Notes: generated by a model not told the origin, from the letters alone. 64,000 nt of DNA from a virus (IMGVR_UViG_3300033141_003979:1-64000); one strand, 5' to 3'. Shown: positions 1 through 14,271, numbered from the stretch's first letter. Numbers and translations: made by a program.

Positions 1-480
1 GCTATAATTGTCGCTGTAGCAGAGAGCACGCAGAACGAACTCCAATACCGCATCACAGAGCCTGTATCCTTGGCTATGGCGGCAGTATATCCCGAAGACC
101 CATACAAGGCCGTGGCTGAATTCATCCTGCACGGCAGGGGGACAACAGAATGTCACTTAGGATTTGAACGGGGTGGGCATGTCAACACTATGCATGGCAT
201 CGGGGGAGGGGTCGTAGATGTATCAAATTATGCCTATCGGCTGGGATCTCTATCATTGATGAGACCAAAGCCCAGACCGGTCCTCGGCTTAGACGAACCC
301 TTTCGTTTTGTATCGCGTGATAAAATGCATTTAGCTGGCCAGATGCTCAAACAAACGAGCAAGGAACTTGGTTTTCAAATCATTATGATAAGCCACATTG
401 CAGAACTGATTGAGGCAGCAGATAAGGTTTTTGAAGTATCTCTTTGCAAAGGAATAAGCGAAGTAAAAGAAATTTCTTAA
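1..480 (+). CDS. SbcC/Rad50 (gp46-like) ABC-ATPase, C-terminal part; 5' end lies outside the window
   Basis: Frame is open from base 1. Degenerate signature GIGGG, Walker B/D-loop LGLDEPF, H-loop IMISH. Confidence 0.8.
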   Translation, partial: AIIVAVAESTQNELQYRITEPVSLAMAAVYPEDPYKAVAEFILHGRGTTECHLGFERGGHVNTMHGIGGGVVDVSNYAYRLGSLSLMRPKPRPVLGLDEPFRFVSRDKMHLAGQMLKQTSKELGFQIIMISHIAELIEAADKVFEVSLCKGISEVKEIS

Positions 481-507: not shown

Positions 508-1253
508 ATGAGTAAATTCAAAAGGAAAGATGAAGTCCAATTATGTAAGTGCGGTTGTGGCGAAAGAACAAAGAAAAGCCAGAACTATAAAGGCTATAAT
601 AAATATATCAATGGGCATAACAGCATAGGCAAAAAAAGAGTTCTTACTAAAGAACATCGAAAACAAATATCAATTGCACAAAAGAAAAATTCTTTTTTCC
701 ATATTTATAATAAAACAAAAGAACATAGTAAAAAGGTTTCAGAAAGCAACAGAAAAAGGAAACTGTCAAAGGAAACAAAAAAAAGATTTCAGATTCTATA
801 AAATCATTAGGGGCAAATCACCCATTTAGAAGTGAAAAGTATAGAAAAAAACAATCTGAAAGAATGCTAAATGCAGGAGATTTACATCCTTCAAAAAATT
901 CTGAATTCCAAAAAATGCATTCAGAAAGAATGCTAAATGGTGGTGCTGCTCATGCCAATAGTTTTATAAAATCCCTTTCTAAACCCCAAGTTGAATTATT
1001 TGAACTTGTCAAACAAATTTATCCTAATACCATACTTAATCATCCATCATTAAATCGTTCTATTGACATAGCAATCCTTGATCAAATGATTGCCATTGAA
1101 TACGATGGAAGTCATTGGCATCAAAATAAAGAAGCAGATAAAAAGAGACAATTAGAATTAGAAACAATAGGCTGGAAATTTCTGAGATACTGTGATTATG
1201 TTCCATCAATGACTGAGCTGGAAAAGGATTTGAAATTATATGAACAAACTTAA
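508..1253 (+). pseudogene. NUMOD3/CxCGC-repeat endonuclease with DUF559/Vsr-like nuclease domain, split by a -1 frameshift at an A8 run
   Basis: ORF 508-801 (CKCGCG, NUMOD3-like motifs) joins ORF 864-1253 (DIAI..IAIEYDGSHWH) if one A is added at 777-784, reading KETKKKISDSIKS...SERMLN. Confidence 0.75.
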
Positions 1254-1995
1254 AACTGTAGCCATCATTCAAGCTCGCATGAATAGCACACGTCTTCCAG
1301 GCAAGGCCATATTACCATTAGCTAGAAACCCCGCCCTTCAGCAAATGATAGAACGAGTCCAAAAAGCCCAGGGAGTCGATCAGATCATAGTAGCAACCCC
1401 GTATGATGAAAGTAACAAGCCAATTTGGGATTTATGTAACGATATGAAAATTATACCCTGGACTGGCAGTGAGCACGATGTCCTTTATCGGGTACTTACA
1501 GCTGCTTGGGGCAATCGAGCAGACATCATTATTGACCTCACAGGAGATTGCCCGCTTATAGACCACCGGCATATTACTCGGTTAGTCAAAACTGTCAAAA
1601 ATGGCTTCAAGCCATGGAGACGAACTATTGATTATACCTCCAACATCAGTCCACGATCATGGCCAGATGGATTTGATGTACAGGTTTACAGAACAAAAGC
1701 GCTAGAAAAAGTCAGATTAGAATTCAATCCGCCACATCATGTTGGATGGAATATAGCTCAACTTCCAGAGGTTTTCAGGATTGCCAAAAATCTGACTGCC
1801 CCAGCCTTGATGCACTGGCCCGGCCTACGGCTAACCCTAGATACAAAAGAGGACTATGAAGTGCTCCAGAAAGTATTTGAATATTTTGGGGATAAGGATT
1901 TTACTGTAGAGGAGACCATTAGATTGATGGTAGGAAGACCGGAATGGCAAAAAATCAATAGAAAGGTCAGGACAAAGAGCCCGGAGGAGGGGTAA
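1240..1995 (+). CDS. SpsF/PseF-type sugar cytidylyltransferase (CMP-nonulosonate synthetase family)
   Basis: AIIQARMNSTRLPGK, GSEHDVL, TGDCPLID and RLTLDTKED motifs. Confidence 0.9.
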   Translation: MNKLKTVAIIQARMNSTRLPGKAILPLARNPALQQMIERVQKAQGVDQIIVATPYDESNKPIWDLCNDMKIIPWTGSEHDVLYRVLTAAWGNRADIIIDLTGDCPLIDHRHITRLVKTVKNGFKPWRRTIDYTSNISPRSWPDGFDVQVYRTKALEKVRLEFNPPHHVGWNIAQLPEVFRIAKNLTAPALMHWPGLRLTLDTKEDYEVLQKVFEYFGDKDFTVEETIRLMVGRPEWQKINRKVRTKSPEEG

Positions 1996-2168
1996 TGAAA
2001 AAACTATTAGTGGTGTTTATGGCAGTTTCAATTTTCGCAATAGTATCTTGCAATAGCGGTGGCGGAGGCAGCAGTAGCCCTCCTCCTGATCCTGAGCCAA
2101 TTACTGAAAAACCTTTTATCTGGGGGCAAAGCCATTGGGGTAATGCCGACTGGGAAGTAAAAAAGTAA
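1995..2168 (+). CDS. Small predicted lipoprotein (57 aa), not in the ORF track
   Basis: MKKLLVVFMAVSIFAIVS-C lipobox, Gly/Ser/Pro linker, C-terminal WGQSHWGNADW. TAATG overlap and GGAGG RBS. Confidence 0.65.
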   Translation: MKKLLVVFMAVSIFAIVSCNSGGGGSSSPPPDPEPITEKPFIWGQSHWGNADWEVKK

Positions 2169-2181
2169 AGGAGGAAAGATC

Positions 2182-2883
2182 ATGAAAAAGATCATCACAA
2201 TTTGCATTTTGTCAGTACTGTTTGCATTCAACACATCATTCGCCGAGGAAGGAGTCACAATTCCTTACAGTTTTGAAAATGGAACCATTGCAGATGCCAA
2301 TGAGGTCAATGCCGTTTTCAATGCTCTAGCCAAATCCATCAACCAAAATCTCATAGTCATGTATGATTATGGGGCACCAGAAAACACTACCAGGATATTT
2401 GCACACTCTGCCTCTCCAACAACCTTGACTTCTGTAGCTACTACCCCTGGGATGGAAACATGGGAATATTCTGATGGATCAAAAATAGAGCATTTAAAGA
2501 AAGATCATGTAGACGGCACTCTTGAAACTGGCCGCAGGATATACAACACTTCCGGAGTCCTTGTACAAGACTTAACATATTTTCCTGCAGTAATAGGAGT
2601 AGATTTAGCTGGATTGAAAGAGGCCGGCAAAATTTGGGGTAATGCCTATGTCGCCAAAAAGCCTGACAGTAGTATGTATGGAACGGAAATCAATATGTAT
2701 TCAATTATAGGCATTGAAGATGTAACGGTACCGGCAGGGACTTTTACCAATTGTACTAAGGTATTCCAAACTACTGGTAATTACAAAAACGTTGCTTGGT
2801 ATGCTGAAGGGGTGGGCATGGTCAAACGAATTGGGGTTGAAGGATTGATAGAATTACAAGAAGTTGAGTTAATTACTCCATAA
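2182..2883 (+). CDS. Secreted hypothetical protein
   Basis: Signal peptide ending SFA; EDVTVPAGTF..C motif in the C-terminal half; AGGAGG RBS. Confidence 0.7.
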   Translation: MKKIITICILSVLFAFNTSFAEEGVTIPYSFENGTIADANEVNAVFNALAKSINQNLIVMYDYGAPENTTRIFAHSASPTTLTSVATTPGMETWEYSDGSKIEHLKKDHVDGTLETGRRIYNTSGVLVQDLTYFPAVIGVDLAGLKEAGKIWGNAYVAKKPDSSMYGTEINMYSIIGIEDVTVPAGTFTNCTKVFQTTGNYKNVAWYAEGVGMVKRIGVEGLIELQEVELITP

Positions 2884-3062
2884 GACAAGAAATAGATTTC
2901 CAATGGCAAGACGTTCCCAACCAAAGCAATCTAAACAGCGATCAAAGACAAAGAAGCATCGCAGCCATGTCACAAAAAATCGTGGGAGCAATAAATGGTT
3001 AGAAGCCCGAATCGAGAGAGTGAAAAAATTATTCAAACCGAAGAAATGGGGGTGAAAATAGC

Positions 3063-4058
3063 ATGAGTAAAATCTATTCAGCAGCAGTAATCGGATGTGG
3101 ATCAATAGGGGCATTGAAACCTGGAGATATTGATTTACCTGGTGGAACGAACATACTAACTCACAGTCATGCACTGTGGAGGCACGAAAGAATAGATTTA
3201 GTTGCAGTGTGTGATATAGATCCAGAAAAGACAACCCAAGCAATGAATAAATGGGAATGCGATGCCAGAGCCAATATTAACAATCTATTTTATGCATTTA
3301 ATCCTGACATCGTAGTTATAGCAACCCCAACTGAAACTCATGCCAAAATCTTGATGGAAGTGATTGGCCACAGCCCAAAACTAATCATTGCAGAAAAGCC
3401 ATTTGGTTTAAATTTTGAACAGGCAGTAAAAATGGTCAATATATATTCAGAAATTCCAATTGCTATAGATTACATCCGCCGCTATGCCAATGGATATAAA
3501 GATATCAAAAAACAAATTGATACCGGTATATTTGGCAAAGCATTAAATTGTCGAGTACTTTATACGAGGGGACTTTTTCATGAGGGATGCCACGGCTTAG
3601 ACTTGATGCATTGGTTTTTTGGCAATATAATTGATCAATATGTTGAAGTTAGAGATATTGGTGTGGGAAAAGAACGATACATAGTAGATTTAAATGATGA
3701 CGATCCAACAGTATACGCAAATTTTGAATTCGTAGGTTGTCCAAATGTTGTATTCCACCCCTGCGATGGCCGTTGTTACGGGATCTTTGAAGTTGACATC
3801 TGCTTTGAAAAAGGCCGATTACGGTTTATTGATAACGGCCTCTATGTTGAGAAGTATCCAATCAATGAAGAAAATGAATGGGGTCACAAATCCCTTGGCT
3901 ATGGCTTGACAAGTGTCATCCGGACAGAAACCGGACTGAATACGGCCTTGTATAATCTGGTTGATAATGCTGTGAATTTCCTTGATGAAAAAGAGCCCTT
4001 GATCTGCACGGCTGAAGATGCTCTTGCAGTTCATAGGATATTAGAAGATATTACTTAA
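3063..4058 (+). CDS. Gfo/Idh/MocA family NAD(P)-dependent oxidoreductase
   Basis: VIGCGSIG Rossmann motif, IATPTETH, AEKP, GCHGLD. Confidence 0.9.
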   Translation: MSKIYSAAVIGCGSIGALKPGDIDLPGGTNILTHSHALWRHERIDLVAVCDIDPEKTTQAMNKWECDARANINNLFYAFNPDIVVIATPTETHAKILMEVIGHSPKLIIAEKPFGLNFEQAVKMVNIYSEIPIAIDYIRRYANGYKDIKKQIDTGIFGKALNCRVLYTRGLFHEGCHGLDLMHWFFGNIIDQYVEVRDIGVGKERYIVDLNDDDPTVYANFEFVGCPNVVFHPCDGRCYGIFEVDICFEKGRLRFIDNGLYVEKYPINEENEWGHKSLGYGLTSVIRTETGLNTALYNLVDNAVNFLDEKEPLICTAEDALAVHRILEDIT

Positions 4059-4123
4059 TCAGTTTTGAAACTTCAGGAATTTCTTATAATAAAACATAAT
4101 AAAGGAAATTCAAAGAGGGTAAA

Positions 4124-4353
4124 ATGGCAGAAACTCCATCAAAAAGAAGACGAAAAGGTAGAGAAGCATTTGCTCCAAATTGCGATCCTATGGAGTTTCA
4201 ACCTTATAAAAAAGGAACATGGCTCATGATTATCATTTGCAAGATTGGTTAGATGGATGGCAAGAAGCTAAAGAGTTTTTTTTTGAAAAGGAAGAAAAAG
4301 AAAAAGAATCTGAAACAATTTGTAAACATTGTGGTGCAATTATAAAGGATTAA
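4124..4353 (+). pseudogene. Small hypothetical gene with an apparent 1-nt frameshift
   Basis: MAETPSKRR... stops at 4252. The -1 frame continues HDYHLQDWLDGWQEAK...CKHCGAIIKD* to 4353, next to the following ATG. Confidence 0.45.
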
Positions 4354-4356
4354 TAA

Positions 4357-5661
4357 ATGAGTAAACTAGCCCTATTCGGCGGCCCAAAAGTCAGAGAAGA
4401 TCTTTTCCCATCACAAAATACCTTTGATCATGAAGAGATGCAGGCCGTATGGCGAGTTATGAAAGAAGGTCGCCTATCAGGCTATCGGGGAAGTTGGTGT
4501 CCTGAATTTTTCGGGGGTCCTGAAATTCAGGCTCTCGAAACCGAATGGAAGAAGAAATTCAATGTCAAACATGCCATTGCTGTAAATAGTTGCACAAGTG
4601 GTCTTCATGTTGCCTGTGGAGCAATAGGATTAACTCCAGGAAGTGAAGTCATAGTTACCCCTTATTCAATGACATGTAGTTCTACAGCTCCTATGATATA
4701 CGGCGCTATACCTGTATTTGCTGATATCGACAATTATTGTGCTCTTGATCCAAAATCAATTGAAGAAAGAATAACCCCTAATACAAAAGCTATAATTGTT
4801 GTTAGTTTATTTGGAATGCCTTATAATCCAAAAATAAATAATATAGCAAAAAAACATGGGCTTCTAATAATCGAAGATGCTGCTCAAGCAATTGGGTCAG
4901 GCCTATCTTTGGGATATGATGAAGCAAATGGGGAACATTTCATCCATGCTGGAAATCTTGGTGATATCGGAGTATATTCCTTCAATTTCGGAAAGCATAT
5001 CAATGCCGGAGAAGGTGGAATAGTAGTTACTAACAATGATGATTTGGCTTTTAGAGTTAGGCTATTTGCTAATCATGGCGAGGCAGTAATCAGCGCTATG
5101 AATCCAGAAGAGTCAAGAAATATGATATCTGAAAATATAGTTGGATTTAATATGAGAATGACAGAGTTACAAGCTGCAATTATACGAGTACAATTAAAAA
5201 AGCTTGATGGATTTATTAAAACAAGAAGAGAAAATGTTAATACATTACATAATATATTAGAACAAATACCTGCTATAACTCTGTCCCCGATCAGAGACAA
5301 TTGCACTCATAGTTATTATGTAGATTCGTATTTATGGGATAGCAAACAAGCTAAAAATTTATACAGAGATAAATTTATTGAAGCCGTAAAAGCTGAATTA
5401 ACCCCGCGGGCAGGGAGAGAAGGGGAAGGAGTCCCAATTGGTTGTGGATATATATCTCCGTTATATCTCATGCCATTATTTCAACAACAAAATCCCTTGT
5501 CGCCAAATTATAAAAAAGGTTCATGCCCTAATTGTGAAGATTTATCTTTTAATAAATTATTTTTATCGCTTTTTCATGCACCCCGAAGTACAAAAGATGA
5601 TATGAAAGATGTTGGAAAGGCTTTTCAAAAGGTCTGGGAAAATAGGAAAGAATTAAAATAA
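4357..5661 (+). CDS. DegT/DnrJ/EryC1/StrS PLP-dependent sugar aminotransferase (PseC/LegC-like)
   Basis: AVNSCTSGLH, IIEDAAQAIG, YSFNFGKHINAGEGG (PLP lysine), GFNMRMTELQAA. Confidence 0.93.
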   Translation: MSKLALFGGPKVREDLFPSQNTFDHEEMQAVWRVMKEGRLSGYRGSWCPEFFGGPEIQALETEWKKKFNVKHAIAVNSCTSGLHVACGAIGLTPGSEVIVTPYSMTCSSTAPMIYGAIPVFADIDNYCALDPKSIEERITPNTKAIIVVSLFGMPYNPKINNIAKKHGLLIIEDAAQAIGSGLSLGYDEANGEHFIHAGNLGDIGVYSFNFGKHINAGEGGIVVTNNDDLAFRVRLFANHGEAVISAMNPEESRNMISENIVGFNMRMTELQAAIIRVQLKKLDGFIKTRRENVNTLHNILEQIPAITLSPIRDNCTHSYYVDSYLWDSKQAKNLYRDKFIEAVKAELTPRAGREGEGVPIGCGYISPLYLMPLFQQQNPLSPNYKKGSCPNCEDLSFNKLFLSLFHAPRSTKDDMKDVGKAFQKVWENRKELK

Positions 5662-5665
5662 ATCC

Positions 5666-5694
5666 TTGATTTCTACCTAAAACTACTATATACT
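5666..5694 (+). promoter_or_regulatory. Sigma70-type promoter
   Basis: TTGATT (5666-5671), 17 bp spacer, TATACT (5689-5694). An equivalent promoter lies at 11173. Confidence 0.75.
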
Positions 5695-5700
5695 TATGCT

Positions 5701-5800
5701 AGATAGCAAAACGATAAATTCAAATTTCAAGCCTGAGAATCCTCATATTGCGAAGTATGAGGGCGTTATCGTTAACGCTATCTGTTCTCAGGCTTTTTTA
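5701..5800 (+). ncRNA. C4-antisense-like three-stem structured RNA, copy 1
   Basis: Closing stem 5729-5739/5785-5795, GCGA (GNRA) hairpin 5741-5762, hairpin 5763-5778, then a U-run. The 5' leader 5701-5717 is complementary to 5766-5783. Covaries with copy 2. Confidence 0.75.
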
Positions 5801-5812
5801 TTTGGAGACGAC

Positions 5813-6421
5813 ATGGGTAAGTATAGAATAGGAAAAACTACTCAAATTACAATTTTTTGTTCACAATGTAATAAGCCTAAAAAAATATATCCCTTTTTAC
5901 AAAATCAAAAACATCACTTTTGTAATAAAAAATGTCATATAAAATGGCAAACCAAAAATATGAAAGGTAAATATAGTCCTGCTTGGAAAGGCGGAAATGT
6001 TATAGCTTTTTGTTCATGGTGCAATAAACCAAAAGAAATAAATCTCTATAAAAAATACAATCAAAAATACCATTTCTGTAGTCAAGAATGTAAAAAAATA
6101 TGGATGTCAGGTGAAAATGCCCCTAGTTGGCGCGGTGGGATATCTACTACTCCATATTGTTTTATATGGTCAGATTGGGAATATAAACAATCTATCAAAG
6201 ACAGAGATAATAATGAATGTCAAAACAAAGTTGATTGTCGCAAAAATTCTAATCACCTTCCTTTATGCCTTCATCATATAGATCACAATAAACAAGAATG
6301 TAATCCTTGGGATATTATAACTGTTTGTCATAGTTGCAATGGTAGAGCAAATTTCAACATAGAATACTGGAAAGAATTTTATCAAAATATAATGACTGAA
6401 AAATATGGATATAAATATTAA
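5813..6421 (+). CDS. Free-standing HNH endonuclease with zinc-finger repeats
   Basis: Probable start ATG 5813 behind GGAG. Two C..C/FC...C repeats, WKGG/WRGG motifs, LHHIDHNKQEC...CHSCNGRAN. Confidence 0.85.
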   Translation: MGKYRIGKTTQITIFCSQCNKPKKIYPFLQNQKHHFCNKKCHIKWQTKNMKGKYSPAWKGGNVIAFCSWCNKPKEINLYKKYNQKYHFCSQECKKIWMSGENAPSWRGGISTTPYCFIWSDWEYKQSIKDRDNNECQNKVDCRKNSNHLPLCLHHIDHNKQECNPWDIITVCHSCNGRANFNIEYWKEFYQNIMTEKYGYKY

Positions 6422-6433
6422 AAAGGGAATAAT

Positions 6434-7300
6434 ATGACTATCAAATGGTGTGCTGAAATAGGAAGTAATCATAACCAAAATTTAGATAGAACAATTAAAT
6501 TGATAAAAGAGGCTAAAAAAATAGGCTGTGATTTTGTTAAGTTCCAACTTTTCAAGGGAGAGAATTTATATCACTCATCATTCGGTGCCAAGATCAATCA
6601 AATGCGAAAGTGGGAATTACCAAGCCATTTTCTTCCTGAGATAAGCCGGTGCTGCAAGGTCAATGACATCCGACTTGGCATCTCTGTTTTTGATCTTGAA
6701 GCCGTAGAAATTGCCAGCAAATATGCAGATTGCCTCAAGATCGGTAGTTATGAATTGCTTTGGCATGATTTAATCAAAACAGTTGTCAAAACAGGTAAGC
6801 CATGGATGATATCATCAGGTATGGCCGATTGGGGACAAATATCAAAGGCAATATCTCTTGTAAGACCTTGCAAGTTTGCTCAGGTGCCGATGGCAATCCT
6901 TCATTGCAACTCAAACTATCCAGCGCGCCCACAGAACTGCTGCCTTAATCAAATCTCTCTTTTGAATAAAATCTTTCCAGCAATGAAAATCGGCTGGTCA
7001 GATCACACAACTGAATCCGGAGTAATATATAAAGCCGTAGCTCTTGGGGCAAAATTTATTGAATTCCATTTTGACCTAGAAGATGGCCTTGGTTATGAAT
7101 CATCAATAGGCCATTGTTGGAAACCAGATAAGATCGGAGAAGTAATTCACAATGTAAGGATCGGAGAGATTGAAGAAGAAAGCACAGATACAGGCGAAAG
7201 CGAAGCGGCCAAGTGGAGGACAGACCCAACTGATGGGCTGAGACCATTGAAAAAATTTAGGGAAGAGTTGTTGAAAGATGAGGCAATGGAGGAGATATGA
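6434..7300 (+). CDS. NeuB/PseI family nonulosonic acid synthase; no C-terminal SAF domain seen
   Basis: AEIGSNH, VKFQ, KIGS, HCNSNYPA, GWSDHT, IEFHF. Confidence 0.92.
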   Translation: MTIKWCAEIGSNHNQNLDRTIKLIKEAKKIGCDFVKFQLFKGENLYHSSFGAKINQMRKWELPSHFLPEISRCCKVNDIRLGISVFDLEAVEIASKYADCLKIGSYELLWHDLIKTVVKTGKPWMISSGMADWGQISKAISLVRPCKFAQVPMAILHCNSNYPARPQNCCLNQISLLNKIFPAMKIGWSDHTTESGVIYKAVALGAKFIEFHFDLEDGLGYESSIGHCWKPDKIGEVIHNVRIGEIEEESTDTGESEAAKWRTDPTDGLRPLKKFREELLKDEAMEEI

Positions 7301-7509
7301 AAGGTATACTGATAGGATGCGTAATCGGTGCGATAATGTGGGCTGTTATAATTATGTGTGCTACGAGCCTACAACCTGCCACCATTGCCTTGCCGTATCG
7401 TCAGGAATGGCCTCGGAAACTGATGAGCGTTGACAGTTTGGGCATTAGCTACTGGCAAGCAAGACCGTTGGGGTTGATAATGATGATTGAAAAGGGATGT
7501 CCGAGATGA
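7297..7509 (+). CDS. Small hypothetical membrane protein
   Basis: Hydrophobic N-terminus, ATGA overlap, GGAGG RBS. Confidence 0.55.
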   Translation: MKGILIGCVIGAIMWAVIIMCATSLQPATIALPYRQEWPRKLMSVDSLGISYWQARPLGLIMMIEKGCPR

Positions 7510-7730
7510 CCAGAGGCGAGTGGCGACCAAAGCCAGGGGATGGCATAACAGACTACAACGGAATTAAGGTGGTAGAGGAAGGGATAGGCGAGAAATTGTC
7601 TGATATAGCGCTTAGTGATTACCTAAAGGTGCGAAAGCAAGTAAGACTGCTAGAAGATGAAGTTGAATTATTAAAGGCCCAGAAGCAAGAATTGATTAAT
7701 GAAATATTGAGGTTGAGAAGAGGGATATAA
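7497..7730 (+). CDS. Hypothetical coiled-coil protein
   Basis: Tightly packed ORF with a heptad-rich C-terminus. Confidence 0.55.
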   Translation: MSEMTRGEWRPKPGDGITDYNGIKVVEEGIGEKLSDIALSDYLKVRKQVRLLEDEVELLKAQKQELINEILRLRRGI

Positions 7731-7731
7731 C

Positions 7732-8859
7732 ATGAAACACTCGATAGTTTTCAAGCAGAAGGACATATATGCCAGTTTTCCCCTGCTAGGATATATAGAT
7801 GGCATTCTGACTATCGGCTTCTTCACTGCCCCGCAACCAGATCACATGGGCATCTTTGATTGGAATGTTAGGAGGTCACACGATGAAGGAGAGACATGGG
7901 AATATAGAAAATTTATGGATTTTCCTTATGACTGGCCAGCGGCATCGGCAAGAGAAAGATCAGACAGATTTACAACCACATTACCAGAGGGAACAGAAAT
8001 GATCACGGGCTCAACCGGATTCATCGGCAAAAAGAATATGGAGGACAAGTTTGAAAAAGTCCTCAGATGCAAAGGACTATTCCAGCGGACTTCAACTGAC
8101 AATTGGAAAACAGCAGTACAATGGATATGGGAAATCCCCAATGTTGACATTGTATTAACTTTTCCAAGACATCTACAAATCGATAATTTGATATTCATTC
8201 CCGCTTATGCAGTATTGGAAAATGGATTGAATAGAGCCTTTGTATGGAGATCTTCTAATGGAGGTAAAAACTGGCGACTTCACAATATGTTTCCTGATGA
8301 AATAAATGCAAATGAGATTGCCTTTGTCGAAACCGAAAGAGGCATTCTTGCCCACATCCGCAGCGATACCACCCCTTTCATTATGGAAAGTTGGTCATAC
8401 GATGGGATAACTTGGACGTATCCAACTTATATACATTATGACAAGTATTGCCTGAAAGTAGCTGGTGGGCCATCACATCTATTAAGACTACAGGATGGAA
8501 GAATATTAGATACCTATGGCTATCGTTTTAACAAGATGGGTATAAAAGCTGTCATATCAGAAGATGAGGGAGTTTCATGGATTAGTCCTACTACCCTGCG
8601 GAATGATGGCGGATATTCGAGTAGTCTGCACAAAAGAAGATGGAGAAACAAATTCAAATTGCCTCATGCCGGCAACGACGTCGGCTATCCCACATCAGTA
8701 CAATTAGGGAATGAATCAATCTTGACAGCTTACTACATTACCTGTGAAGACAGGATAACGCACATTGCTACAACAAACTGGGATATTGATGATGAAAATC
8801 AATTAGCGACTCCATCTGGCTCACCTAGCCCATCACCTGAATTTGAGGAGGAGAAATAA
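7732..8859 (+). CDS. Sialidase-like BNR/Asp-box beta-propeller protein
   Basis: Asp-boxes SHDEGETW, STDNWKT, SSNGGKNW, SYDGITW, SEDEGVSW; late GYP motif. Confidence 0.82.
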   Translation: MKHSIVFKQKDIYASFPLLGYIDGILTIGFFTAPQPDHMGIFDWNVRRSHDEGETWEYRKFMDFPYDWPAASARERSDRFTTTLPEGTEMITGSTGFIGKKNMEDKFEKVLRCKGLFQRTSTDNWKTAVQWIWEIPNVDIVLTFPRHLQIDNLIFIPAYAVLENGLNRAFVWRSSNGGKNWRLHNMFPDEINANEIAFVETERGILAHIRSDTTPFIMESWSYDGITWTYPTYIHYDKYCLKVAGGPSHLLRLQDGRILDTYGYRFNKMGIKAVISEDEGVSWISPTTLRNDGGYSSSLHKRRWRNKFKLPHAGNDVGYPTSVQLGNESILTAYYITCEDRITHIATTNWDIDDENQLATPSGSPSPSPEFEEEK

Positions 8860-9563
8860 TGAGTGAATATCGAATATACATGATTGATGGTGATCATCTT
8901 TTAGGGTGGAAAGGAAACAAGTGCAAGAACGTCCTCGAACTTGTGAAGATGTCTATTGAGTTATTGAAAGAAGAAGGATGGAAAATTGAATATAAGGAGC
9001 CAAAGACAGAGAAAGGAGAGAAATATATTACTGATGATGGTGAATGTATGTTTGACGTAGAAGTCGACAGAGTGCCTTGCAATTCTTTTCTTCATGGCAT
9101 CCGCCTTACCCTGACCTATCCGGAGCCGGAGCCAGTAGTGGATAAGTGTACAGCAAATATCGGCACTGATTGTGATATCTGTGATCGTGATAAACCATAT
9201 TGTGCTCACTACAAGATAAAAGAAAGACTTAACAAATCAGTACCCGACCCTCAAGGAGATGAAACCGAAGAAGCAGCAACCAATTATATCATACCTGGGC
9301 ATGTACCCAACCTCGACGAGGCGGAGGTGGGTCAAGACGTTCAAAGGAACAAACTACCACGGTGTCCGACTTGTGGGCAACCTGAAGCTGTAGAAATAGA
9401 CGGAAATGGCGAAATACGCATTATTCGTGACGAGCCGGAGGTGGATGAGTGGGAGAAGCTTAAAGAACTTTGTTCTGACAGTTTAGGAGTTTCTGAAATG
9501 AAGTATTTGCTTCGGGGTCTTGTGAAAGAAATTGACAAACTCAGATGTCCGAAGGGAGGATGA
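8859..9563 (+). CDS. Hypothetical Cys-containing protein
   Basis: Translationally coupled ORF with CDIC and CPTCG motifs. Confidence 0.55.
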   Translation: MSEYRIYMIDGDHLLGWKGNKCKNVLELVKMSIELLKEEGWKIEYKEPKTEKGEKYITDDGECMFDVEVDRVPCNSFLHGIRLTLTYPEPEPVVDKCTANIGTDCDICDRDKPYCAHYKIKERLNKSVPDPQGDETEEAATNYIIPGHVPNLDEAEVGQDVQRNKLPRCPTCGQPEAVEIDGNGEIRIIRDEPEVDEWEKLKELCSDSLGVSEMKYLLRGLVKEIDKLRCPKGG

Positions 9564-10553
9564 ATGAACTTCGAGTCTAAACTATTCTGGCAAGGCCGAG
9601 AAGTATTGATTTCCGGTGGCACTGGCAGTCTTGGGAAGGCAATTACAAACTTGCTTATCCAAGAAGAATATCCAATCAAAGGATTGCGCATCTTCAGCCG
9701 TGACGAACTGAAGCAATATCAAATGAGGCAAAGCCTCAAAGCCCCATTCCCAGTGGCTTTCCTGATTGGAGATATCCGCAATCGTAAACGGTTGACCAGG
9801 GCTATGGAAGGGGTCGATACATGCATTCATGCCGCAGCATTAAAACAAGTAGACACATCTGAAAGCAATCCGTGGGAATTTATTGAAACCAACATTATAG
9901 GCACACAAAATGTTCTCGATGCCTGCCTGGATTGCAAGGTTGCCAGAGCAATGTTGATAAGCACTGACAAGGCCTCTTATCCCATTAATCTATACGGCAT
10001 GACCAAAGGATGTGCTGAACGGATCTTTGTGCATGGCAATATTTATTCCGGTGGTAGAATTCCAATATTTGGTGCTTGTAGATATGGGAATGTTCTCGGT
10101 TCACGAGGGTCTGTTATCCAAGTATTTCAGGAACAAGCCCTCAATGGGCAAATAATAACCATCACCGACAGTCAAATGACTAGATTCTGGATTACTATGA
10201 AAGATGTAGCCCGCTTCATTCTTCAATCAATCGAAATCATGCAAGCAGGAGAAATATATATCCCAAAAATGCCGAGCATGAAGATCGTAGATCTAGCAAA
10301 AACTATCATTGCAGAAACAGGCACAATGGGAAAATCGAAAATTGAAGAAATTGGTGTCAGACCAGGAGAGAAATTGCATGAGACATTGGTAACCAAAGAA
10401 GAAAGCTACAAATGTGATGTCCAGGATACCTATTATTTAATCCATCCAGTCAGAGAGTGCCCACCGGAGACGGTCAGGGCTTTATTCTCATATACAAGTG
10501 ATAACAATGATTGGTGGTTAACGAAGAAAGAGTTATGGGAAATGATAAAATGA
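9564..10553 (+). CDS. UDP-GlcNAc 4,6-dehydratase (PseB/FlaA1-like)
   Basis: ISGGTGSLG, FSRDELKQ, HAAALKQV, STDKA, PINLYGMTK, RYGNVLGSRGSV, MTRFW, RPGEKLHE. Confidence 0.93.
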   Translation: MNFESKLFWQGREVLISGGTGSLGKAITNLLIQEEYPIKGLRIFSRDELKQYQMRQSLKAPFPVAFLIGDIRNRKRLTRAMEGVDTCIHAAALKQVDTSESNPWEFIETNIIGTQNVLDACLDCKVARAMLISTDKASYPINLYGMTKGCAERIFVHGNIYSGGRIPIFGACRYGNVLGSRGSVIQVFQEQALNGQIITITDSQMTRFWITMKDVARFILQSIEIMQAGEIYIPKMPSMKIVDLAKTIIAETGTMGKSKIEEIGVRPGEKLHETLVTKEESYKCDVQDTYYLIHPVRECPPETVRALFSYTSDNNDWWLTKKELWEMIK

Positions 10554-11176
10554 CATCAGCAATGTATGAAACTAAACGGCTTATTCTTGAACCATTTAGC
10601 AGGAAACATCTTGAAGGGCCTTATCGTTCATGGTTCCATGATCCTGAAGTAACAAAATACAATTCCCATGGCCTCTTCCCATATACGATTGCCAAGATGG
10701 AAGCTTTTCTTGCATCAATTGAGGCAGGTAATATGATTGTAATGGCAGTAATGGCAAAATCAAAAAAATCAACTATAGAAATTCAAAATTCAAAAATTTC
10801 TTCTGATTGTGACCAAGGATTCAATTACATTTTTTCTGAAACAAACTTAATTCACATCGGCAACATCTCCCTTCAATCTATCAACTGGATTAACCGCAGT
10901 GCCGAGTACGCAGTAATTGTGGGAGATAAATCCTACTGGGGCAAAGGCTATGCCACAGAGGCAAGCCTGCTGTTGTTTGAGCACGGCTTTAAACGATTAA
11001 ATTTACATAAAATTTGGACTGGAACAGCAAAGACAAATATTGGAATGCAGCATGTAGCAAAAAAATTAGGAATGCAGTGGGAAGGAATGTTTCGAGAAGC
11101 AATGTTTTTAAACGGTCAATATGTAGATATTCTTACATATGGGATCTTAAAAAAAGAATTTAATCAAATTTCTTGA
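10550..11176 (+). CDS. GNAT N-acetyltransferase (PseH/RimJ-like)
   Basis: Probable start 10550 (ATGA overlap). HIGNISL..INWINRSAE, YWGKGYATEA, LNLHKI. Confidence 0.85.
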   Translation: MTSAMYETKRLILEPFSRKHLEGPYRSWFHDPEVTKYNSHGLFPYTIAKMEAFLASIEAGNMIVMAVMAKSKKSTIEIQNSKISSDCDQGFNYIFSETNLIHIGNISLQSINWINRSAEYAVIVGDKSYWGKGYATEASLLLFEHGFKRLNLHKIWTGTAKTNIGMQHVAKKLGMQWEGMFREAMFLNGQYVDILTYGILKKEFNQIS

Positions 11177-11201
11177 CTTTTCCAAAAAAAAATAATATAA
11201 T
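11173..11201 (+). promoter_or_regulatory. Sigma70-type promoter
   Basis: TTGACT (11173-11178), 17 bp spacer, TATAAT (11196-11201). Confidence 0.8.
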
Positions 11202-11207
11202 TATGAT

Positions 11208-11310
11208 GAATAGTATAGCAACGATCCAAAATTTAGAGCCTGAGAGTTTTCATGTCGTGAGGCATGGAAGCGTTGTTGCTAACGCTATTCACTCTCGGGC
11301 TTTTCTTTTT
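11208..11310 (+). ncRNA. C4-antisense-like three-stem structured RNA, copy 2
   Basis: Closing stem 11237-11247/11291-11301, GTGA (GNRA) hairpin 11248-11269, hairpin 11270-11285, then a U-run. Leader 11208-11225 is complementary to 11272-11290. Confidence 0.75.
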
Positions 11311-11322
11311 GGGGAGATTGGC

Positions 11323-12219
11323 ATGAGATTCAAAAGACGGAATCTACCACTATGTGAATGTGGATGTGGATATGAAGTTAAATGGTGTCAGACAAGAAAA
11401 CAATGGAATCCATTTATTAATGGACATCAAAATAGAGGCAAAAATAATTCACAATATAGCAAGACTGGCAAATTGAGTGCTGTTTATGGCAAAGACAAAT
11501 ATGCAGAAGAAAAAGCAAAATCTAAACCACTATGTAAATGTGGATGTAAAAATAAGACTAAATGGTGCAAATCAAGAAAGAAATTTAATGAATATATCAA
11601 TGGTCATTACATTTGTATTAATAATCCAATGAATAATCCAAAATCAGTAGCGAAATTAACTGGAAAAAATAGTTGTAATTATGGGAAAACAGGCAAAAAT
11701 CACCCTGCTTATGGATCTCAAAAATCTGAAGCAAAAAGAAAGAAAACATCAAAAACATTAATAGGAAATCAGAATAGCAAAGGGACTAGAAGGAATAAAG
11801 AATTTTGTGAAAACCAAAGAAAAATAATGTTAAATGGAGGGGCAAAACATGCCAATTCGTTTAAGACACCAGAAAGTTATAAAGCCCATACAGAATATAT
11901 GCTTAATGGTGGGGCTGCATATTTAAATTCACTTATTAAATCGCCCTCTAAACCACAAGTAGAATTGTTTGAACTAATCAAACAACTATTTCCAAATGCA
12001 ATTCTTAACCATCCATCATTGAATCGTTCTATTGACATAGCAATTCCTGACAAAATGATTGCAATTGAATATGATGGATCATACTGGCATCAAGATCAAA
12101 AAGCAGATGATAAAAGGCAGAAAGAATTAGAGTCACTTGGATGGAAGTTTCTGAGATACTGTGATTATGTCCCTACTATTGATGAATTAGAAAGGGATTT
12201 AAAAGGAGCAGAAAGATGA
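11323..12219 (+). CDS. Free-standing endonuclease with CxCGC repeats, NUMOD3-like motifs and a DUF559/Vsr-like domain
   Basis: Probable start ATG 11323 behind GGGGAG. CECGCG and CKCGC; C-terminus highly similar to 864-1253. Confidence 0.82.
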   Translation: MRFKRRNLPLCECGCGYEVKWCQTRKQWNPFINGHQNRGKNNSQYSKTGKLSAVYGKDKYAEEKAKSKPLCKCGCKNKTKWCKSRKKFNEYINGHYICINNPMNNPKSVAKLTGKNSCNYGKTGKNHPAYGSQKSEAKRKKTSKTLIGNQNSKGTRRNKEFCENQRKIMLNGGAKHANSFKTPESYKAHTEYMLNGGAAYLNSLIKSPSKPQVELFELIKQLFPNAILNHPSLNRSIDIAIPDKMIAIEYDGSYWHQDQKADDKRQKELESLGWKFLRYCDYVPTIDELERDLKGAER

Positions 12220-12449
12220 AAAAGAGCAAAGCAGAAAAATTCTCTCCTTCAGATATAAAACAAGCAACTGATATGACTATAATTAACAAGATCCAATTCA
12301 TTCGTACCAAAAACAACCAAGCTTGGATGGATATCCTGCGATGTGCTATGTCGAATGCCCCAGAAGAAACAAAGGTGATAATGGCCGCCATTGCAAAAAA
12401 CGATGCAGAAATTACAGAACTGACAAAGGAATTAGCAGATGCCTTGTGA
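12216..12449 (+). CDS. Hypothetical protein
   Basis: ATGA overlap, AGGAG RBS; conserved-looking IRTKNNQAWMDILR segment. Confidence 0.65.
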   Translation: MKKSKAEKFSPSDIKQATDMTIINKIQFIRTKNNQAWMDILRCAMSNAPEETKVIMAAIAKNDAEITELTKELADAL

Positions 12450-12636
12450 ACACAAAAATACGTACTATGAAGATTGGCCTAACGGCAGATGCATTGAAAT
12501 CTGCCTTGATTACAGTATGTCTCGTCATCACTGGGAACAGGGGCAATCTGAGTGGGTAATAGTTAAAGATATTGCAGGAGCAAAAGAGCGAGTGCAGGAG
12601 TCTATCAATGAAATGAGAGACGTAGTATGTTTTTAG
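12439..12636 (+). CDS. Hypothetical protein
   Basis: Overlapping small ORF in operon orientation. Confidence 0.5.
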   Translation: MPCEHKNTYYEDWPNGRCIEICLDYSMSRHHWEQGQSEWVIVKDIAGAKERVQESINEMRDVVCF

Positions 12637-12643
12637 AAAGATA

Positions 12644-12814
12644 ATGGCCAAACTAGTCAAAGGGTATAAGTGCCCAAAGTGTGGAGGGCAGATTCGAGAA
12701 GATGAAAAAATGCAGAATAGGTATTTTTGTACCAATGCCGGAGATGCGTATGGTAAAGGTGTATGTATATTTGAAACTTATCGTAGAAGCGATTTAGTGA
12801 AGGAGGAGGAATGA
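12644..12814 (+). CDS. Small zinc-ribbon protein (56 aa), not in the ORF track
   Basis: MAKLVKGYKCPKCGG...YFC...VCIF. Confidence 0.5.
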   Translation: MAKLVKGYKCPKCGGQIREDEKMQNRYFCTNAGDAYGKGVCIFETYRRSDLVKEEE

Positions 12815-12888
12815 AACTTAAACCTGTTTATAAGATTTACATCTCTATAAATATGTTCATGAATTAGCAGAGTTATTGAGAGGAAAAA

Positions 12889-14271
12889 ATGAAAAAGAAG
12901 AACAAAACGCTGGCTAAAAATCTCAATGCATTCAAAAAAATCAATCCCCCCATGCATGGTTGGCTGATGGAACAGAAAGGGGTTAATTGGATCGATGAGA
13001 TTCGCAGCAAAAATGGGGACAAGAATTTCCTCATCCAAGAAGGCAGCAAAATCCAGCCAGCCTACAATATGAACAACCCAACAAAGCAAGCCAACAAAGG
13101 CACCAAGAACATGAGGTTGCACAAGGAAAACATTTCAATAATTGTTGGCTTTGGCCTTGGTTATCTTGCTAAAGCTATCTTAGACAAGATGGAAAAAGGA
13201 CACCATGTCCTTGTAATTGAGCCAGTAGGAGATGTAATAAAATTAGCCCTCGGCAATATTGATTTTTCCAAGGCAATCTCTAATGGAGACTTATTGATAA
13301 TTGCCCCAGGCAAACAGGAAGTTATTTTTGCTCTCCATTTTATGAGCAATCAATTCGTGATCTCAGACTGGTTCATGACGATAGACAAATATACAAACCT
13401 CAAGCCAGATGTCTACAAAGAGTTAACCGGACTTACTGCCGATATCATTAACCAGGTCATGTGCAATACAGGCACAATAGCTGGTGCCGCAGGCGGCAAG
13501 ATCGCTGACAATGACATTGCCTGCCTGCCCTATGTCATAAGGCACAGGGGTGTTGCAGAATTGAAGGACCTATACAAAGACAAACCTGCTATTCTTGTAA
13601 GTACAGGCCCATCATTGGCCAAAAACATCCACCATCTAATCGACTTAGAGGACAAGACAGTGATCATTGCAGTCGGTCAAGCATTGAGACCTCTGCTTGC
13701 CTATGGAATCCGTCCGGACTTCATCTGCACCGTAGATTTTGGAGAAGTCAATTACTGCCATTTCAAAGGGCTCATGGACAGCAACATTCCCTTAGTAACA
13801 ATCAATAGGGCTTATGCCCCATTGCTCAAGGCTTGGCAGGGACCAAAATTCATCGCAGCAACACCAGTGCCCGGCTTTGAGCACATGGCCACTGGCATAT
13901 TATCAGATAAAGGATTCCTTGAGGCCGGAGGCAGTGTGGCACATTTGGTATTCGGGTTGGCTCAACGACTTGGCTGCAATCCAATAGTCTTCGTGGGCCA
14001 GGATCTTGCTCTCGGAGAGACTTCTCATATCCCTCTGGCCGATGCCGCAGGAGAGGTGAAGATTGATGAAAGCGGGCAAATCCATTGGGAAGTGAAGGAT
14101 CACAGATGTCATCTTCATAAGAAAGATCAAACTTATTTAATGGGGCCTATTGCACAAGTACCAGGCTATTTCGGGAAGCCAGTTATGACGAATATGGGAT
14201 TAGCCAGCTTCTTATCGGTATTTGAGGCAATGGTTGAAGGGCATTTGAGGAGGAATGATGAAACGAATTAA
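12889..14271 (+). CDS. Maf (motility-associated factor, DUF115) protein glycosyltransferase, N-terminal part
   Basis: VGFGLGY, AILVSTGPSLAKNI, GIRPDFICTVD, GGSVAH, LGCNPIVFVGQDLA. Ends before the INATEGG motif. Confidence 0.88.
   Translation: MKKKNKTLAKNLNAFKKINPPMHGWLMEQKGVNWIDEIRSKNGDKNFLIQEGSKIQPAYNMNNPTKQANKGTKNMRLHKENISIIVGFGLGYLAKAILDKMEKGHHVLVIEPVGDVIKLALGNIDFSKAISNGDLLIIAPGKQEVIFALHFMSNQFVISDWFMTIDKYTNLKPDVYKELTGLTADIINQVMCNTGTIAGAAGGKIADNDIACLPYVIRHRGVAELKDLYKDKPAILVSTGPSLAKNIHHLIDLEDKTVIIAVGQALRPLLAYGIRPDFICTVDFGEVNYCHFKGLMDSNIPLVTINRAYAPLLKAWQGPKFIAATPVPGFEHMATGILSDKGFLEAGGSVAHLVFGLAQRLGCNPIVFVGQDLALGETSHIPLADAAGEVKIDESGQIHWEVKDHRCHLHKKDQTYLMGPIAQVPGYFGKPVMTNMGLASFLSVFEAMVEGHLRRNDETN

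What the first reader, a model, noticed from the sequence alone, without database searches (positions are those of the whole stretch)
5666..5815. Promoter plus C4-like three-stem RNA leader in front of an HNH endonuclease
Seen: sigma70 promoter, then leader AGATAGC-aa-AACGATAA, then a three-way junction (11-bp closing stem, GNRA hairpin, GCGTT-ATCGTT-AACGC hairpin), a U-run, RBS and ATG 5813. The leader is complementary in two blocks to the third hairpin loop and the adjacent junction strand (TTATCGTT..GCTATCT). Known: P1/P7 C4 and P4 CI antisense RNAs use this bipartite a/b pairing to control antirepressor or lytic genes. Inference: a C4-like switch or attenuator here controls a toxic free-standing nuclease. 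I found no clear downstream a2-b2 site.
Basis: partly seen in the sequence, partly recalled or inferred. Interest (0 to 1): 0.78.

Follow-up and report, generated by a model that had tools for sequence, protein, structure and literature searches.

The report
Self-pairing terminator leader of homing endonucleases
Selfish DNA-cutting genes in this uncultured 110-kb phage, and in dozens of other environmental phage contigs, each carry a small uncatalogued cassette (promoter, folded Y-shaped RNA ending in a transcription stop signal, ribosome site) whose first 17 bases pair with one arm of the fold; it most likely sets how many transcripts reach the nuclease gene.

Summary
At 5666-5815 a sigma70-type promoter is followed by a 29-nt leader, a three-way junction (P1, P2 with a GNRA loop, P3), a U-run, GGAG and the ATG of an HNH gene.

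The genome (109,770 bp, IMG/VR virus record) holds four copies, each before a free-standing endonuclease gene. I found 7 more copies in three related viral records and about 49 in metagenome contigs.

On a structure-blind alignment of 50 members every helix covaries. That includes the two-block pairing between the leader and the P3 loop plus junction. Cognate leader/target duplexes average -17.0 kcal/mol against -7.5 for non-cognate ones.

It is not a C4 RNA. Rfam 15 gives no match. No second (a2/b2) target exists near the ribosome site, in the ORF or anywhere in the phage.

Stepwise folding puts the leader pairing first and the terminator fold second, the layout of a transcription attenuator. 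A static double pseudoknot and a P4-CI-like feedback in trans remain open.

The in-frame "N-terminal extension" that gene callers add is an artefact; half the members have stops there.

This scan has noted other structured leader RNAs before endonuclease genes on other DNA. I could not test whether they belong to this family.

Verdict: a new RNA family with a known kind of mechanism.

The parts
5666..5694 (+). Copy 1 promoter: -35 TTGATT (5666-5671), 17-nt spacer, -10 TATACT (5689-5694)
   Evidence: Across 50 members the -35 and -10 boxes diverge 0.09-0.35, against 0.36-0.51 for the spacer. The spacer is 17 nt in 45 of 50 members.
5701..5717 (+). Copy 1 leader. The predicted +1 is A5701. Block 1 is 5701-5707 (AGATAGC) and block 2 is 5710-5717 (AACGATAA).
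   Evidence: The first paired leader base is a purine exactly 7 nt after the -10 box in 49 of 50 members. Covariation of both blocks.
5718..5728 (+). A-rich linker with a weak anti-Shine-Dalgarno stretch (UUCAAAU, which can pair with AUUUGGA at 5800-5806)
   Evidence: minimum-free-energy fold. In 35 of 44 members the best linker to post-terminator duplex touches the SD, but the pairing is weak, -2 to -9 kcal/mol.
5729..5795 (+). Three-way junction. P1 is 5729-5740 with 5784-5795. P2 is 5741-5749 with 5754-5762, loop GCGA 5750-5753. P3 is 5763-5768 with 5773-5778. Junction strand is 5779-5783. The partner of the leader is 5766-5773 plus 5777-5783.
   Evidence: 92.6% of cells paired and 19 of 27 pairs with double changes. 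G-U outnumbers A-C 35:2 in P1 and 70:4 in P2, so the fold is RNA of the + strand.
5794..5815 (+). U-run 5794-5799, SD GGAG 5804-5807, start codon 5813-5815
   Evidence: The U-run region is conserved, diverging 0.07-0.29 against about 0.5 for neutral columns.
5813..6421 (+). Free-standing HNH-type endonuclease gene (202 aa). The gene-caller version of 241 aa, starting at 5696, wrongly includes the RNA.
   Evidence: The C-terminal domain is 59% identical to L004:3349-3792 (P0013). That ORF matches PHROG HNH families. Homologues carry NUMOD3.
11173..11325 (+). Copy 2 of the cassette. Promoter: -35 TTGACT 11173-11178 and -10 TATAAT 11196-11201. Leader blocks: 11208-11214 and 11217-11224. Junction: 11236-11302. 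GGGGAG is at 11311-11316 and ATG at 11323.
   Evidence: 133.9 bits.
11323..12219 (+). Second endonuclease gene (298 aa) with a DUF559/REase-like C-terminus
   Evidence: PHROG 3339 'homing endonuclease', E = 9e-10.

Best explanation
This is one copy of a portable cis-regulatory cassette of free-standing homing endonuclease genes.

A host-type sigma70 promoter starts an RNA whose first base opens a 17-nt two-block leader. Next come an A-rich linker and a Y-shaped fold (P1, P2 with a GNRA loop, P3). Its closing stem P1 is followed by a U-run, which makes it an intrinsic terminator. The ribosome site and the nuclease ORF follow.

The leader pairs with the P3 loop, part of the P3 stem and the junction strand next to P1. 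This pairing can form as soon as that stretch is transcribed, before the 3' strand of P1 exists. It consumes P3 and, I infer, hinders closure of P1. Once P1 can close, the Y-shaped terminator is the more stable fold.

The cassette therefore works as a transcription attenuator. Competition between leader pairing (read-through) and the Y-shaped terminator (stop) sets how many transcripts enter the nuclease gene.

Shown: the parts, their conservation, covariation of both pairings, and the order of stabilities.

Inferred: the transcription start, actual termination, the direction of the effect of leader pairing, and whether any signal shifts the balance.
For: Copies and distribution:
- Four copies in the genome (100-134 bits), each before an endonuclease gene.
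- 7 copies in three related viral records and about 49 in metagenome contigs.
- Downstream ORFs are NUMOD3, HNH_3, DUF559/MTES_1575, GIY-YIG and AP2 types.

Promoter:
- The boxes are conserved with a 17-nt spacer.
- The first paired leader base is a purine 7 nt after the -10 box in 49 of 50 members.

Structure:
- P1, P2 and the base of P3 covary.
- The leader pairing covaries at 15 of 15 pairs.
- Cognate duplexes average -17.0 kcal/mol against -7.5 for non-cognate ones. The cognate target is the best of 53 for 37 leaders.

Mutual exclusion:
- Three of the four leader pairs that overlap the P3 stem are kept above chance (p = 0.005, 0.007, 0.0008).
- The optimal duplex takes at least 3 P3-stem bases in 48 of 49 members. 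P3 alone is worth about -5 kcal/mol.

Folding order:
- Up to the end of the target stretch, the minimum-free-energy fold contains the leader helix in 36 of 50 members and P3 in 2 of 50.
- Once the 3' strand of P1 is present, P1 forms in 50 of 50 and the leader helix in 0 of 50.
- The terminator fold is then more stable by about 10 kcal/mol on average.
Against: - No transcript data: the start site, termination and read-through are all predictions.
- Nested-structure folding forbids the leader helix and P1 together by construction. My steric argument that they cannot coexist is reasoning, not a computation.
- The best-kept leader pairs are those with the P3 loop and the junction strand, which are unpaired in the Y fold. 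That is what a static double pseudoknot would also show.
- In the leader helix G-U is no commoner than A-C (20:18), unlike P1 and P2.
- Predicted access to the ribosome site is the same in both folds (0.40 and 0.40), so there is no coherent second lock.
- No trigger is identified.
- The metagenome members were retrieved with a pattern that fixes part of P1 and the GNRA loop. Conservation of those parts is therefore overstated.
Confidence: 0.5

Rival explanations
1. Static doubly pseudoknotted leader. P1, P2 and a short 4-bp P3 coexist with two tertiary pairings: leader bases 1-5 with the junction strand, and leader bases 10-16 with the P3 loop. The knot pre-organises and locks the Y-shaped terminator and buries the 5' end. 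Leader pairing would then promote termination and/or protect the RNA from decay that starts at the 5' end, rather than oppose termination.
For: - The most significant leader pairs are those with the P3 loop and the junction (p = 0.0002 each).
- Only the basal 4 bp of P3 covary; the inner two P3 pairs do not.
- The helix begins at the predicted +1 in 49 of 50 members.
- A strand-by-strand layout gives a plausible coaxial stack of P1, junction helix, P3 and loop helix (my own reasoning).
Against: - Complementarity runs into the P3 stem in 48 of 49 members.
- Three of the four overlapping pairs are kept above chance. A static knot does not need this.
- The 12-nt linker would have to span most of the stack.
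Confidence: 0.25
2. Same-locus feedback in trans, working like P4 CI RNA or the IsrK short and long isoforms. The short RNA released at the U-run exposes its P3 loop and junction strand. It pairs with the leader of nascent transcripts from the same cassette. That leaves the nascent P3 and P1 free to fold and terminate. Each nuclease gene would then shut itself off, with a private specificity.
For: - The layout of promoter, complementary leader, structured RNA and terminator resembles seqA followed by CI in P4. P4 CI is described in PMC4825925 (read).
- Copies within one genome are mutually non-cognate. The cognate duplex is always the best in its row by 4-10 kcal/mol.
Against: - There is no downstream target.
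- The leader and its partner diverge at the same rate as the P2 stem, the promoter spacer and the linker. So there is no sign of selection for new specificities.
- Intramolecular pairing has the kinetic advantage.
- There is no Rfam kinship with C4.
Confidence: 0.1
3. The conserved stretch is protein-coding. It would be an N-terminal extension or leader peptide read from the ATG just after the -10 box, as gene callers annotate it (241 aa instead of 202 aa).
For: - The frame is open in all four copies of this genome, and the indels between them are multiples of three.
- 8 of 16 database homologues carry the same 'ML[DN]...SQAFLFG' extension.
- That frame is open in 27 of 53 members, against 9 of 53 for each other frame.
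Against: - 26 of 53 members retrieved by DNA pattern have stops in that frame.
- By my manual codon-by-codon comparison of copies 1 and 2 (sequences), their substitutions fall about equally on all three codon positions.
- Pairs covary on both sides throughout.
- The ATG lies upstream of the predicted start of transcription and has no ribosome site, while a GGAG precedes the downstream ATG.
Confidence: 0.02
4. A stand-alone small RNA gene whose 5' seed acts on another target, in the phage or the host. On this view it merely sits next to endonuclease genes.
For: - A strong promoter and a terminator would give an abundant RNA of about 95 nt.
- The single-stranded 5' end and the U-tail resemble those of Hfq-type small RNAs (from general knowledge).
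Against: - No above-null second site exists anywhere in the phage.
- The element always lies about 10-25 nt upstream of a ribosome site and ORF, nearly always an endonuclease.
- The seed varies freely between copies, always in step with its own P3.
Confidence: 0.05

Closest known systems
P4 CI RNA and P1/P7 C4 antisense RNAs (Rfam C4, c4-a1b1, c4-2)
   Same: - A phage promoter is followed by a sequence (seqA, or a1/b1) that is complementary to a structured RNA made from the same transcript.
- The pairing is bipartite.
- In P4 the outcome is premature transcription termination (PMC4825925).
- The a1/b1 and a2/b2 detail for P1 is from memory.
   Different: - No covariance-model match.
- No downstream second site (seqC, or a2/b2).
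- No immunity or antirepressor genes.
- It occurs in lytic-type phage contigs before endonuclease genes.
- RNase P processing is not indicated.
- It ends in its own U-run terminator.
Transcription attenuators with competing antiterminator and terminator folds (riboswitch expression platforms; the antisense-driven attenuators of pT181 and pIP501)
   Same: - A 5' leader lies between promoter and ORF.
- There is an intrinsic terminator.
- An upstream segment can pair with part of the terminator structure before the terminator is complete.
- The folding order matches.
   Different: - The terminator is a three-way junction, not a simple hairpin.
- The competing strand is the very 5' end of the RNA. 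It attacks a side arm (P3 and the junction strand), not the terminator stem itself.
- No ligand, protein or antisense promoter is evident.
Regulatory hairpins of T4-family homing endonuclease genes (I-TevI, segB, Aeh1 mobE)
   Same: RNA structure in front of a free-standing or intron-borne endonuclease gene holds expression down. This comparison is from memory, and earlier notes of this scan name it as the closest known.
   Different: Those are simple hairpins that sequester the ribosome site, often with a nested late promoter. Here the main device is a promoter-proximal Y-shaped terminator with a self-pairing leader, and predicted SD access does not change between the folds.
int-alpA RNA motif (Rfam RF02996) and other endonuclease-leader RNAs noted earlier in this scan
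   Same: Small Y-shaped leaders with their own promoter sit before phage nuclease genes, and one loop is complementary to a nearby site (notes e1-3035393, e1-5764759, e1-5909538, e1-5916847, e1-5921057).
   Different: - No match to int-alpA or any other Rfam model.
- Here the loop pairs with the 5' end of the RNA and not with the ribosome site.
- Whether any of those notes concerns this family could not be tested; sequence look-ups found nothing.

Membership tests
Rfam C4 antisense RNA / c4-a1b1 / c4-2 | Significant match to the family covariance model | tested here: not met
   No Rfam family reached its gathering score in the window or in the rest of the genome. No C4-type model appeared at E<=10 in 5500-6000 or at E<=1 in 20 other members.
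Rfam C4 antisense RNA / c4-a1b1 / c4-2 | Upstream a1/b1-like sites complementary to two exposed regions of the structured RNA | tested here: met
   Leader blocks 1 and 2 pair with the junction strand and the P3 loop, with covariation.
Rfam C4 antisense RNA / c4-a1b1 / c4-2 | Downstream a2/b2 target covering the ribosome site of the regulated gene | tested here: not met
   Cognate and non-cognate pairing are the same at -25..+30 of the ATG (-10.2 against -9.6 kcal/mol) and at +30..+300. No second site exists in the whole genome.
Rfam C4 antisense RNA / c4-a1b1 / c4-2 | Sits in an immunity operon with antirepressor genes; processed by RNase P | tested here: not met
   Downstream genes are homing endonucleases. 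RNase P processing cannot be tested here.
P4 CI-type RNA-dependent termination | Complementary sites both upstream (seqA) and downstream (seqC) of the RNA, as described in PMC4825925 | tested here: not met
   The upstream site is present. No downstream site was found.
Intrinsic-terminator attenuator | Stem followed directly by a U-tract, lying between promoter and ORF | tested here: met
   P1 (10-12 bp, with G-C pairs at its base) is followed by 4-8 U in all members. The simple hairpin scanner cannot see a branched terminator.
Intrinsic-terminator attenuator | An alternative pairing that excludes the terminator fold, with both kept in evolution | tested here: inconclusive
   Both the leader helix and P3 covary and they share bases. 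Exclusion of P1 itself rests on steric reasoning only.
Intrinsic-terminator attenuator | Measured termination and regulated read-through | not testable with these tools
   No transcript data are available for this uncultured phage.
RBS-sequestering leaders of T4-type homing endonuclease genes | The Shine-Dalgarno sequence is paired in the repressed fold and free in the active one | tested here: inconclusive
   A linker anti-SD can pair in 35 of 44 members. But the predicted unpaired probability of the SD is 0.40 in both folds.
int-alpA RNA motif (RF02996) | Significant match to the family covariance model | tested here: not met

The most novel reading that the evidence does not exclude
The cassette is a self-addressed riboregulator. 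The short RNA released at the Y-shaped terminator returns in trans to the leader of nascent transcripts of the same cassette only. Each selfish nuclease gene would then give a brief burst of expression after infection and switch itself off, with a private and freely evolvable address. That would be a sense-strand counterpart of antisense-driven attenuation and of P4 immunity, carried by mobile genes.
Probability: 0.1. Interest if true: 0.8.

Novelty: new variant of a known kind. Interest (0 to 1): 0.6.

Why it matters
How free-standing homing endonucleases keep a potentially harmful nuclease in check is known only for a few T4-type genes. This cassette bears on that question in four ways:
- It is portable and travels with at least four unrelated nuclease families in many uncultured phages.
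- It uses a branched terminator whose side arm is addressed by the RNA's own 5' end.
- It is small (about 115 nt), has more than 50 natural variants with matched compensatory changes, and can be tested directly in vitro.
- Its 17-nt address varies freely, so it could also serve as a set of orthogonal attenuators.

It also corrects an annotation artefact. Gene callers read through the RNA and add a false 39-44-residue N-terminus to these proteins in public databases.

Tried and rejected
Led nowhere:
- A strict DNA pattern from two copies, scanned in viral contigs, gave one chance hit inside a coding gene. A fixed-spacing pattern gave none.
- blastn against cultured phages returned only short chance matches.
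- Single-protein locus searches found nothing.
So the DNA of the eight database homologues that carry the false N-terminal extension could not be fetched.
- Of 50 viral records bearing related HNH genes that I searched whole with the model, 47 lack the element.
- The genome-contig scan gave 67 stretches, about the number expected by chance. Only one scored with the model.

Considered and rejected:
- C4 kinship.
- A downstream or distant second target.
- A translated extension.
- Diversifying selection on the address. The two closest copies suggested it, but family-wide rates equal those of the P2 stem and the spacer.
- A coherent switch of ribosome-site access.
- A whole-genome RNAduplex scan timed out. 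I replaced it with a vectorised pair-count scan.

Limits:
- The search pattern fixes part of P1 and the GNRA loop. Family size is therefore a lower bound, and conservation of those parts is inflated.

Full report
**1. What is there**

One search shows these features:
- The stop codon of a DegT-type aminotransferase gene at 5659-5661.
- TTGATT (5666-5671), 17 nt, then TATACT (5689-5694).
- A 29-nt leader from about 5701.
- A three-way junction at 5729-5795.
- Six U (5794-5799), GGAG (5804-5807) and ATG 5813 of a 202-aa ORF ending at 6421.

RNAfold gives the junction as the minimum-free-energy and centroid structure (-39.6 kcal/mol, z = -5.9). P1 has 12 pairs, P2 has 9 pairs with a GCGA loop, and P3 has 6 pairs.

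**2. Copies in the genome**

The window is the first 64 kb of a 109,770-bp IMG/VR virus record with direct terminal repeats.
- A pattern search found a second copy at 11173-11325.
- A promoter pattern found a third at genome position 106680.
- A covariance model built from these three found a fourth at genome position 97762-97917 (L006:13762-13917).
- The model found nothing else in the genome (100-134 bits).

All four copies stand directly before free-standing endonuclease genes: one HNH, two with a DUF559/REase-like C-terminus, and one NUMOD3 plus HNH gene that is split between two frames.

The three copies aligned first (1-3) align without gaps from the -35 box to the U-run; copy 4 carries a 3-nt insertion in the linker. 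In those first three copies the junction is 98.8% paired, with 7 double changes. The leader helix is 100% paired, with 9 of its 15 pairs changed on both sides.

**3. The family**

- No cultured phage has the element.
- Related HNH proteins in the protein database often begin with 'ML[DN]...PEN.H.A.YEGV...SQAFLFG...M'. This is the in-frame translation of the RNA, so the element is widespread.
- An alignment-based locus search gave 79 viral loci. Three carry the element.
- Whole-record searches found 4, 1-2 and 2 copies in those three records. The 47 other records searched whole had none.
- One metagenome scan, with a pattern that fits all 11 copies then known, returned 80 loci. The model scored 50 matches in them, one of them doubtful.
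- The same pattern over 185,579 species genomes gave 67 stretches, about the number expected by chance. Only one weak model hit came out, next to an integrase in an Ignavibacteriae MAG.

The element therefore belongs to uncultured phages. The ORFs behind 44 members carry NUMOD3 (11), HNH_3 (8), MTES_1575/DUF559 (8), HNH, HNH_5, GIY-YIG, AP2 and I-HmuI-like domains. These are several unrelated homing-endonuclease families.

**4. Structure tested without leaning on it**

I aligned 50 members with MAFFT, from the -35 box to the U-run, so that the conserved promoter anchors the variable leader.

On this alignment:
- The junction is 92.6% paired, against 78% after shuffling and 33-52% when slid. 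19 of 27 pairs show double changes, including all 9 pairs of P2.
- The leader helix is 81.5% paired, against 58% after shuffling and 31-45% when slid. All 15 pairs show double changes, in 225 cells.

Independent of any alignment, RNAduplex of each leader against each member's P3 plus junction gives -17.0 kcal/mol for cognate pairs and -7.5 for non-cognate ones. The cognate target ranks first of 53 for 37 leaders and in the top two for 47.

G-U outnumbers A-C by 35:2 in P1 and 70:4 in P2, so the fold belongs to RNA of the + strand. In the leader helix the ratio is 20:18. Its outer pairs are loosely kept.

**5. Promoter and start**

- The -35 box (TTGACT, TTGATT or TTTACT) and the -10 box (TATAnT) are conserved, while the 17-nt spacer drifts at the neutral rate.
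- The first base of leader block 1 is a purine exactly 7 nt after the -10 box in 49 of 50 members. The predicted +1 base is therefore the first base of the helix.
- The simple promoter scanner lists both window copies. Its counts in the region are not above chance, so the case for a promoter rests on conservation.

**6. Not coding**

The frame from the ATG after the -10 box to the true start is open in all four copies here, and gene callers use it. Among 53 members retrieved by DNA, 26 have stops in that frame. The ATG lies upstream of the predicted start of transcription. The covariation cannot be explained by coding.

That frame is still open more often (27 of 53) than the other two frames (9 of 53 each). 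I put this down to common descent of a subfamily with spacings of 76, 79, 82, 85 and 88 nt.

**7. Not C4, and no second target**

- Rfam 15 gives nothing at gathering scores for the whole genome.
- It gives nothing C4-like at E<=10 around copy 1 and nothing at E<=1 in 20 other members.
- Pairing of P3 and the junction with the ribosome-site region, the ORF or upstream sequence is no better for cognate than for non-cognate combinations.
- Across the 110-kb genome each leader's only partner above the shuffled-probe level is its own P3 and junction: 14-15 of 15 pairs, against a null median of 13.5.

**8. How it most likely works**

Folding transcripts of growing length gives:
- Up to the end of the junction strand, the minimum-free-energy structure contains the leader helix in 36 of 50 members and P3 in 2 of 50.
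- With the 3' strand of P1 and four U added, P1 forms in 50 of 50 and the leader helix in none.
- The terminator fold is then more stable by about 10 kcal/mol on average.

P3 alone is weak, about -5 kcal/mol. The optimal leader duplex takes at least three P3-stem bases in 48 of 49 members. Three of the four column pairs that overlap the P3 stem are kept above chance.

This is the layout of an attenuator: a first-formed pairing that competes with a later, more stable terminator. I infer, but cannot compute, that P1 cannot close while the P3/junction strand is held in a 15-17-bp duplex. Only one base separates that duplex from the 3' strand of P1.

**9. What remains open**

- *Static knot.* The strongest covariation is with the P3 loop and the junction strand, and only the basal four pairs of P3 covary. 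A static double pseudoknot that coexists with P1 is therefore a serious rival. It would reverse the sign of the leader's effect.
- *Action in trans.* A P4-CI-like action of the terminated RNA on nascent leaders is possible. Copies in one genome are mutually non-cognate. But the address evolves no faster than the P2 stem, the spacer or the linker, so nothing points to selection for specificity.
- *Ribosome site.* The linker can pair weakly with the U-run and the ribosome site in 35 of 44 members. Predicted ribosome-site access is 0.40 in both folds, so I do not claim a translational lock.

**10. Known relatives and novelty**

Literature searches found no description of this family. The P4 CI mechanism is as summarised in PMC4825925. 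Details of P1 C4 and of the T4-type endonuclease hairpins are from memory.

Earlier notes of this scan flagged the other copies in this genome (e1-6019127, e1-6019158). They also report several other structured leaders before endonuclease genes on other DNA. I could not link those to this family by sequence.

Verdict: a real RNA family that is absent from Rfam 15 and from the papers I could search, with a known kind of mechanism (leader attenuation) in an unusual form.

Noticed in passing
G000 79997-80130 (L005:15997-16130, +), outside the window: A second kind of cassette: TTGATT, 17 nt, TATAAT, then a 5' hairpin and a Y-shaped fold that ends in a G+C-rich stem and a U-run, then GGAGG and a TTG start. 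It folds at -47.3 kcal/mol, z = -3.1. It has no Rfam match and is unrelated in sequence to the family studied here.
   Followed up: partly
L004:1410-2684 and L004:5558 to window 1-480: A Rad50/SbcC-like ATPase appears split into two genes. The N-terminal half has a Walker A motif, a coiled coil and a CPLC hook. The C-terminal half has the signature and Walker B motifs. Between them lie RNA cassette copy 3 with its endonuclease gene, small ORFs and an Mre11/SbcD-like nuclease gene (L004:4052-4993).
   Followed up: no
L004:2831-3361 and L004:3349-3792: The endonuclease behind copy 3 is in two overlapping frames: a NUMOD3 part, then an HNH part. It is either a frameshifted pseudogene or a gene that needs a frameshift.
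   Followed up: no
window 508-801 and 864-1253: A further DUF559-type endonuclease gene in two pieces. Its 3' part is 77% identical in DNA to the gene behind copy 2 (repeat D10). It has no RNA cassette: the upstream ORF ends at 480, only 28 nt before it.
   Followed up: partly
window 5696-6421; proteins P0001-P0008, P0016, P0017: Public gene calls read through the RNA element and add a false N-terminus ('ML[DN]...SQAFLFG...') to at least nine endonuclease proteins in the protein collection: the window's own call plus eight homologues.
   Followed up: yes
L086:1501-1618(-) and L148:8597-8714(+): Two family members have ATA where the others have the ATG start codon, and no ORF follows. They may be decayed endonuclease genes that keep an intact RNA cassette.
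   Followed up: no
L240:191-308(-), Ignavibacteriae MAG contig CAMTXU010000003.1: The only model hit in cellular genomes (44.6 bits). It lies just downstream of a tyrosine integrase gene and before a small, very basic ORF, not an endonuclease. This context recalls the int-alpA motif.
   Followed up: partly
window 1240-14271: The endonuclease cassettes are inserted between genes of a pseudaminic/legionaminic-type sugar pathway (cytidylyltransferase, oxidoreductase, DegT, NeuB, PseB-like dehydratase, GNAT, Maf-like). Each cassette's terminator could therefore be polar on the next pathway gene.
   Followed up: no
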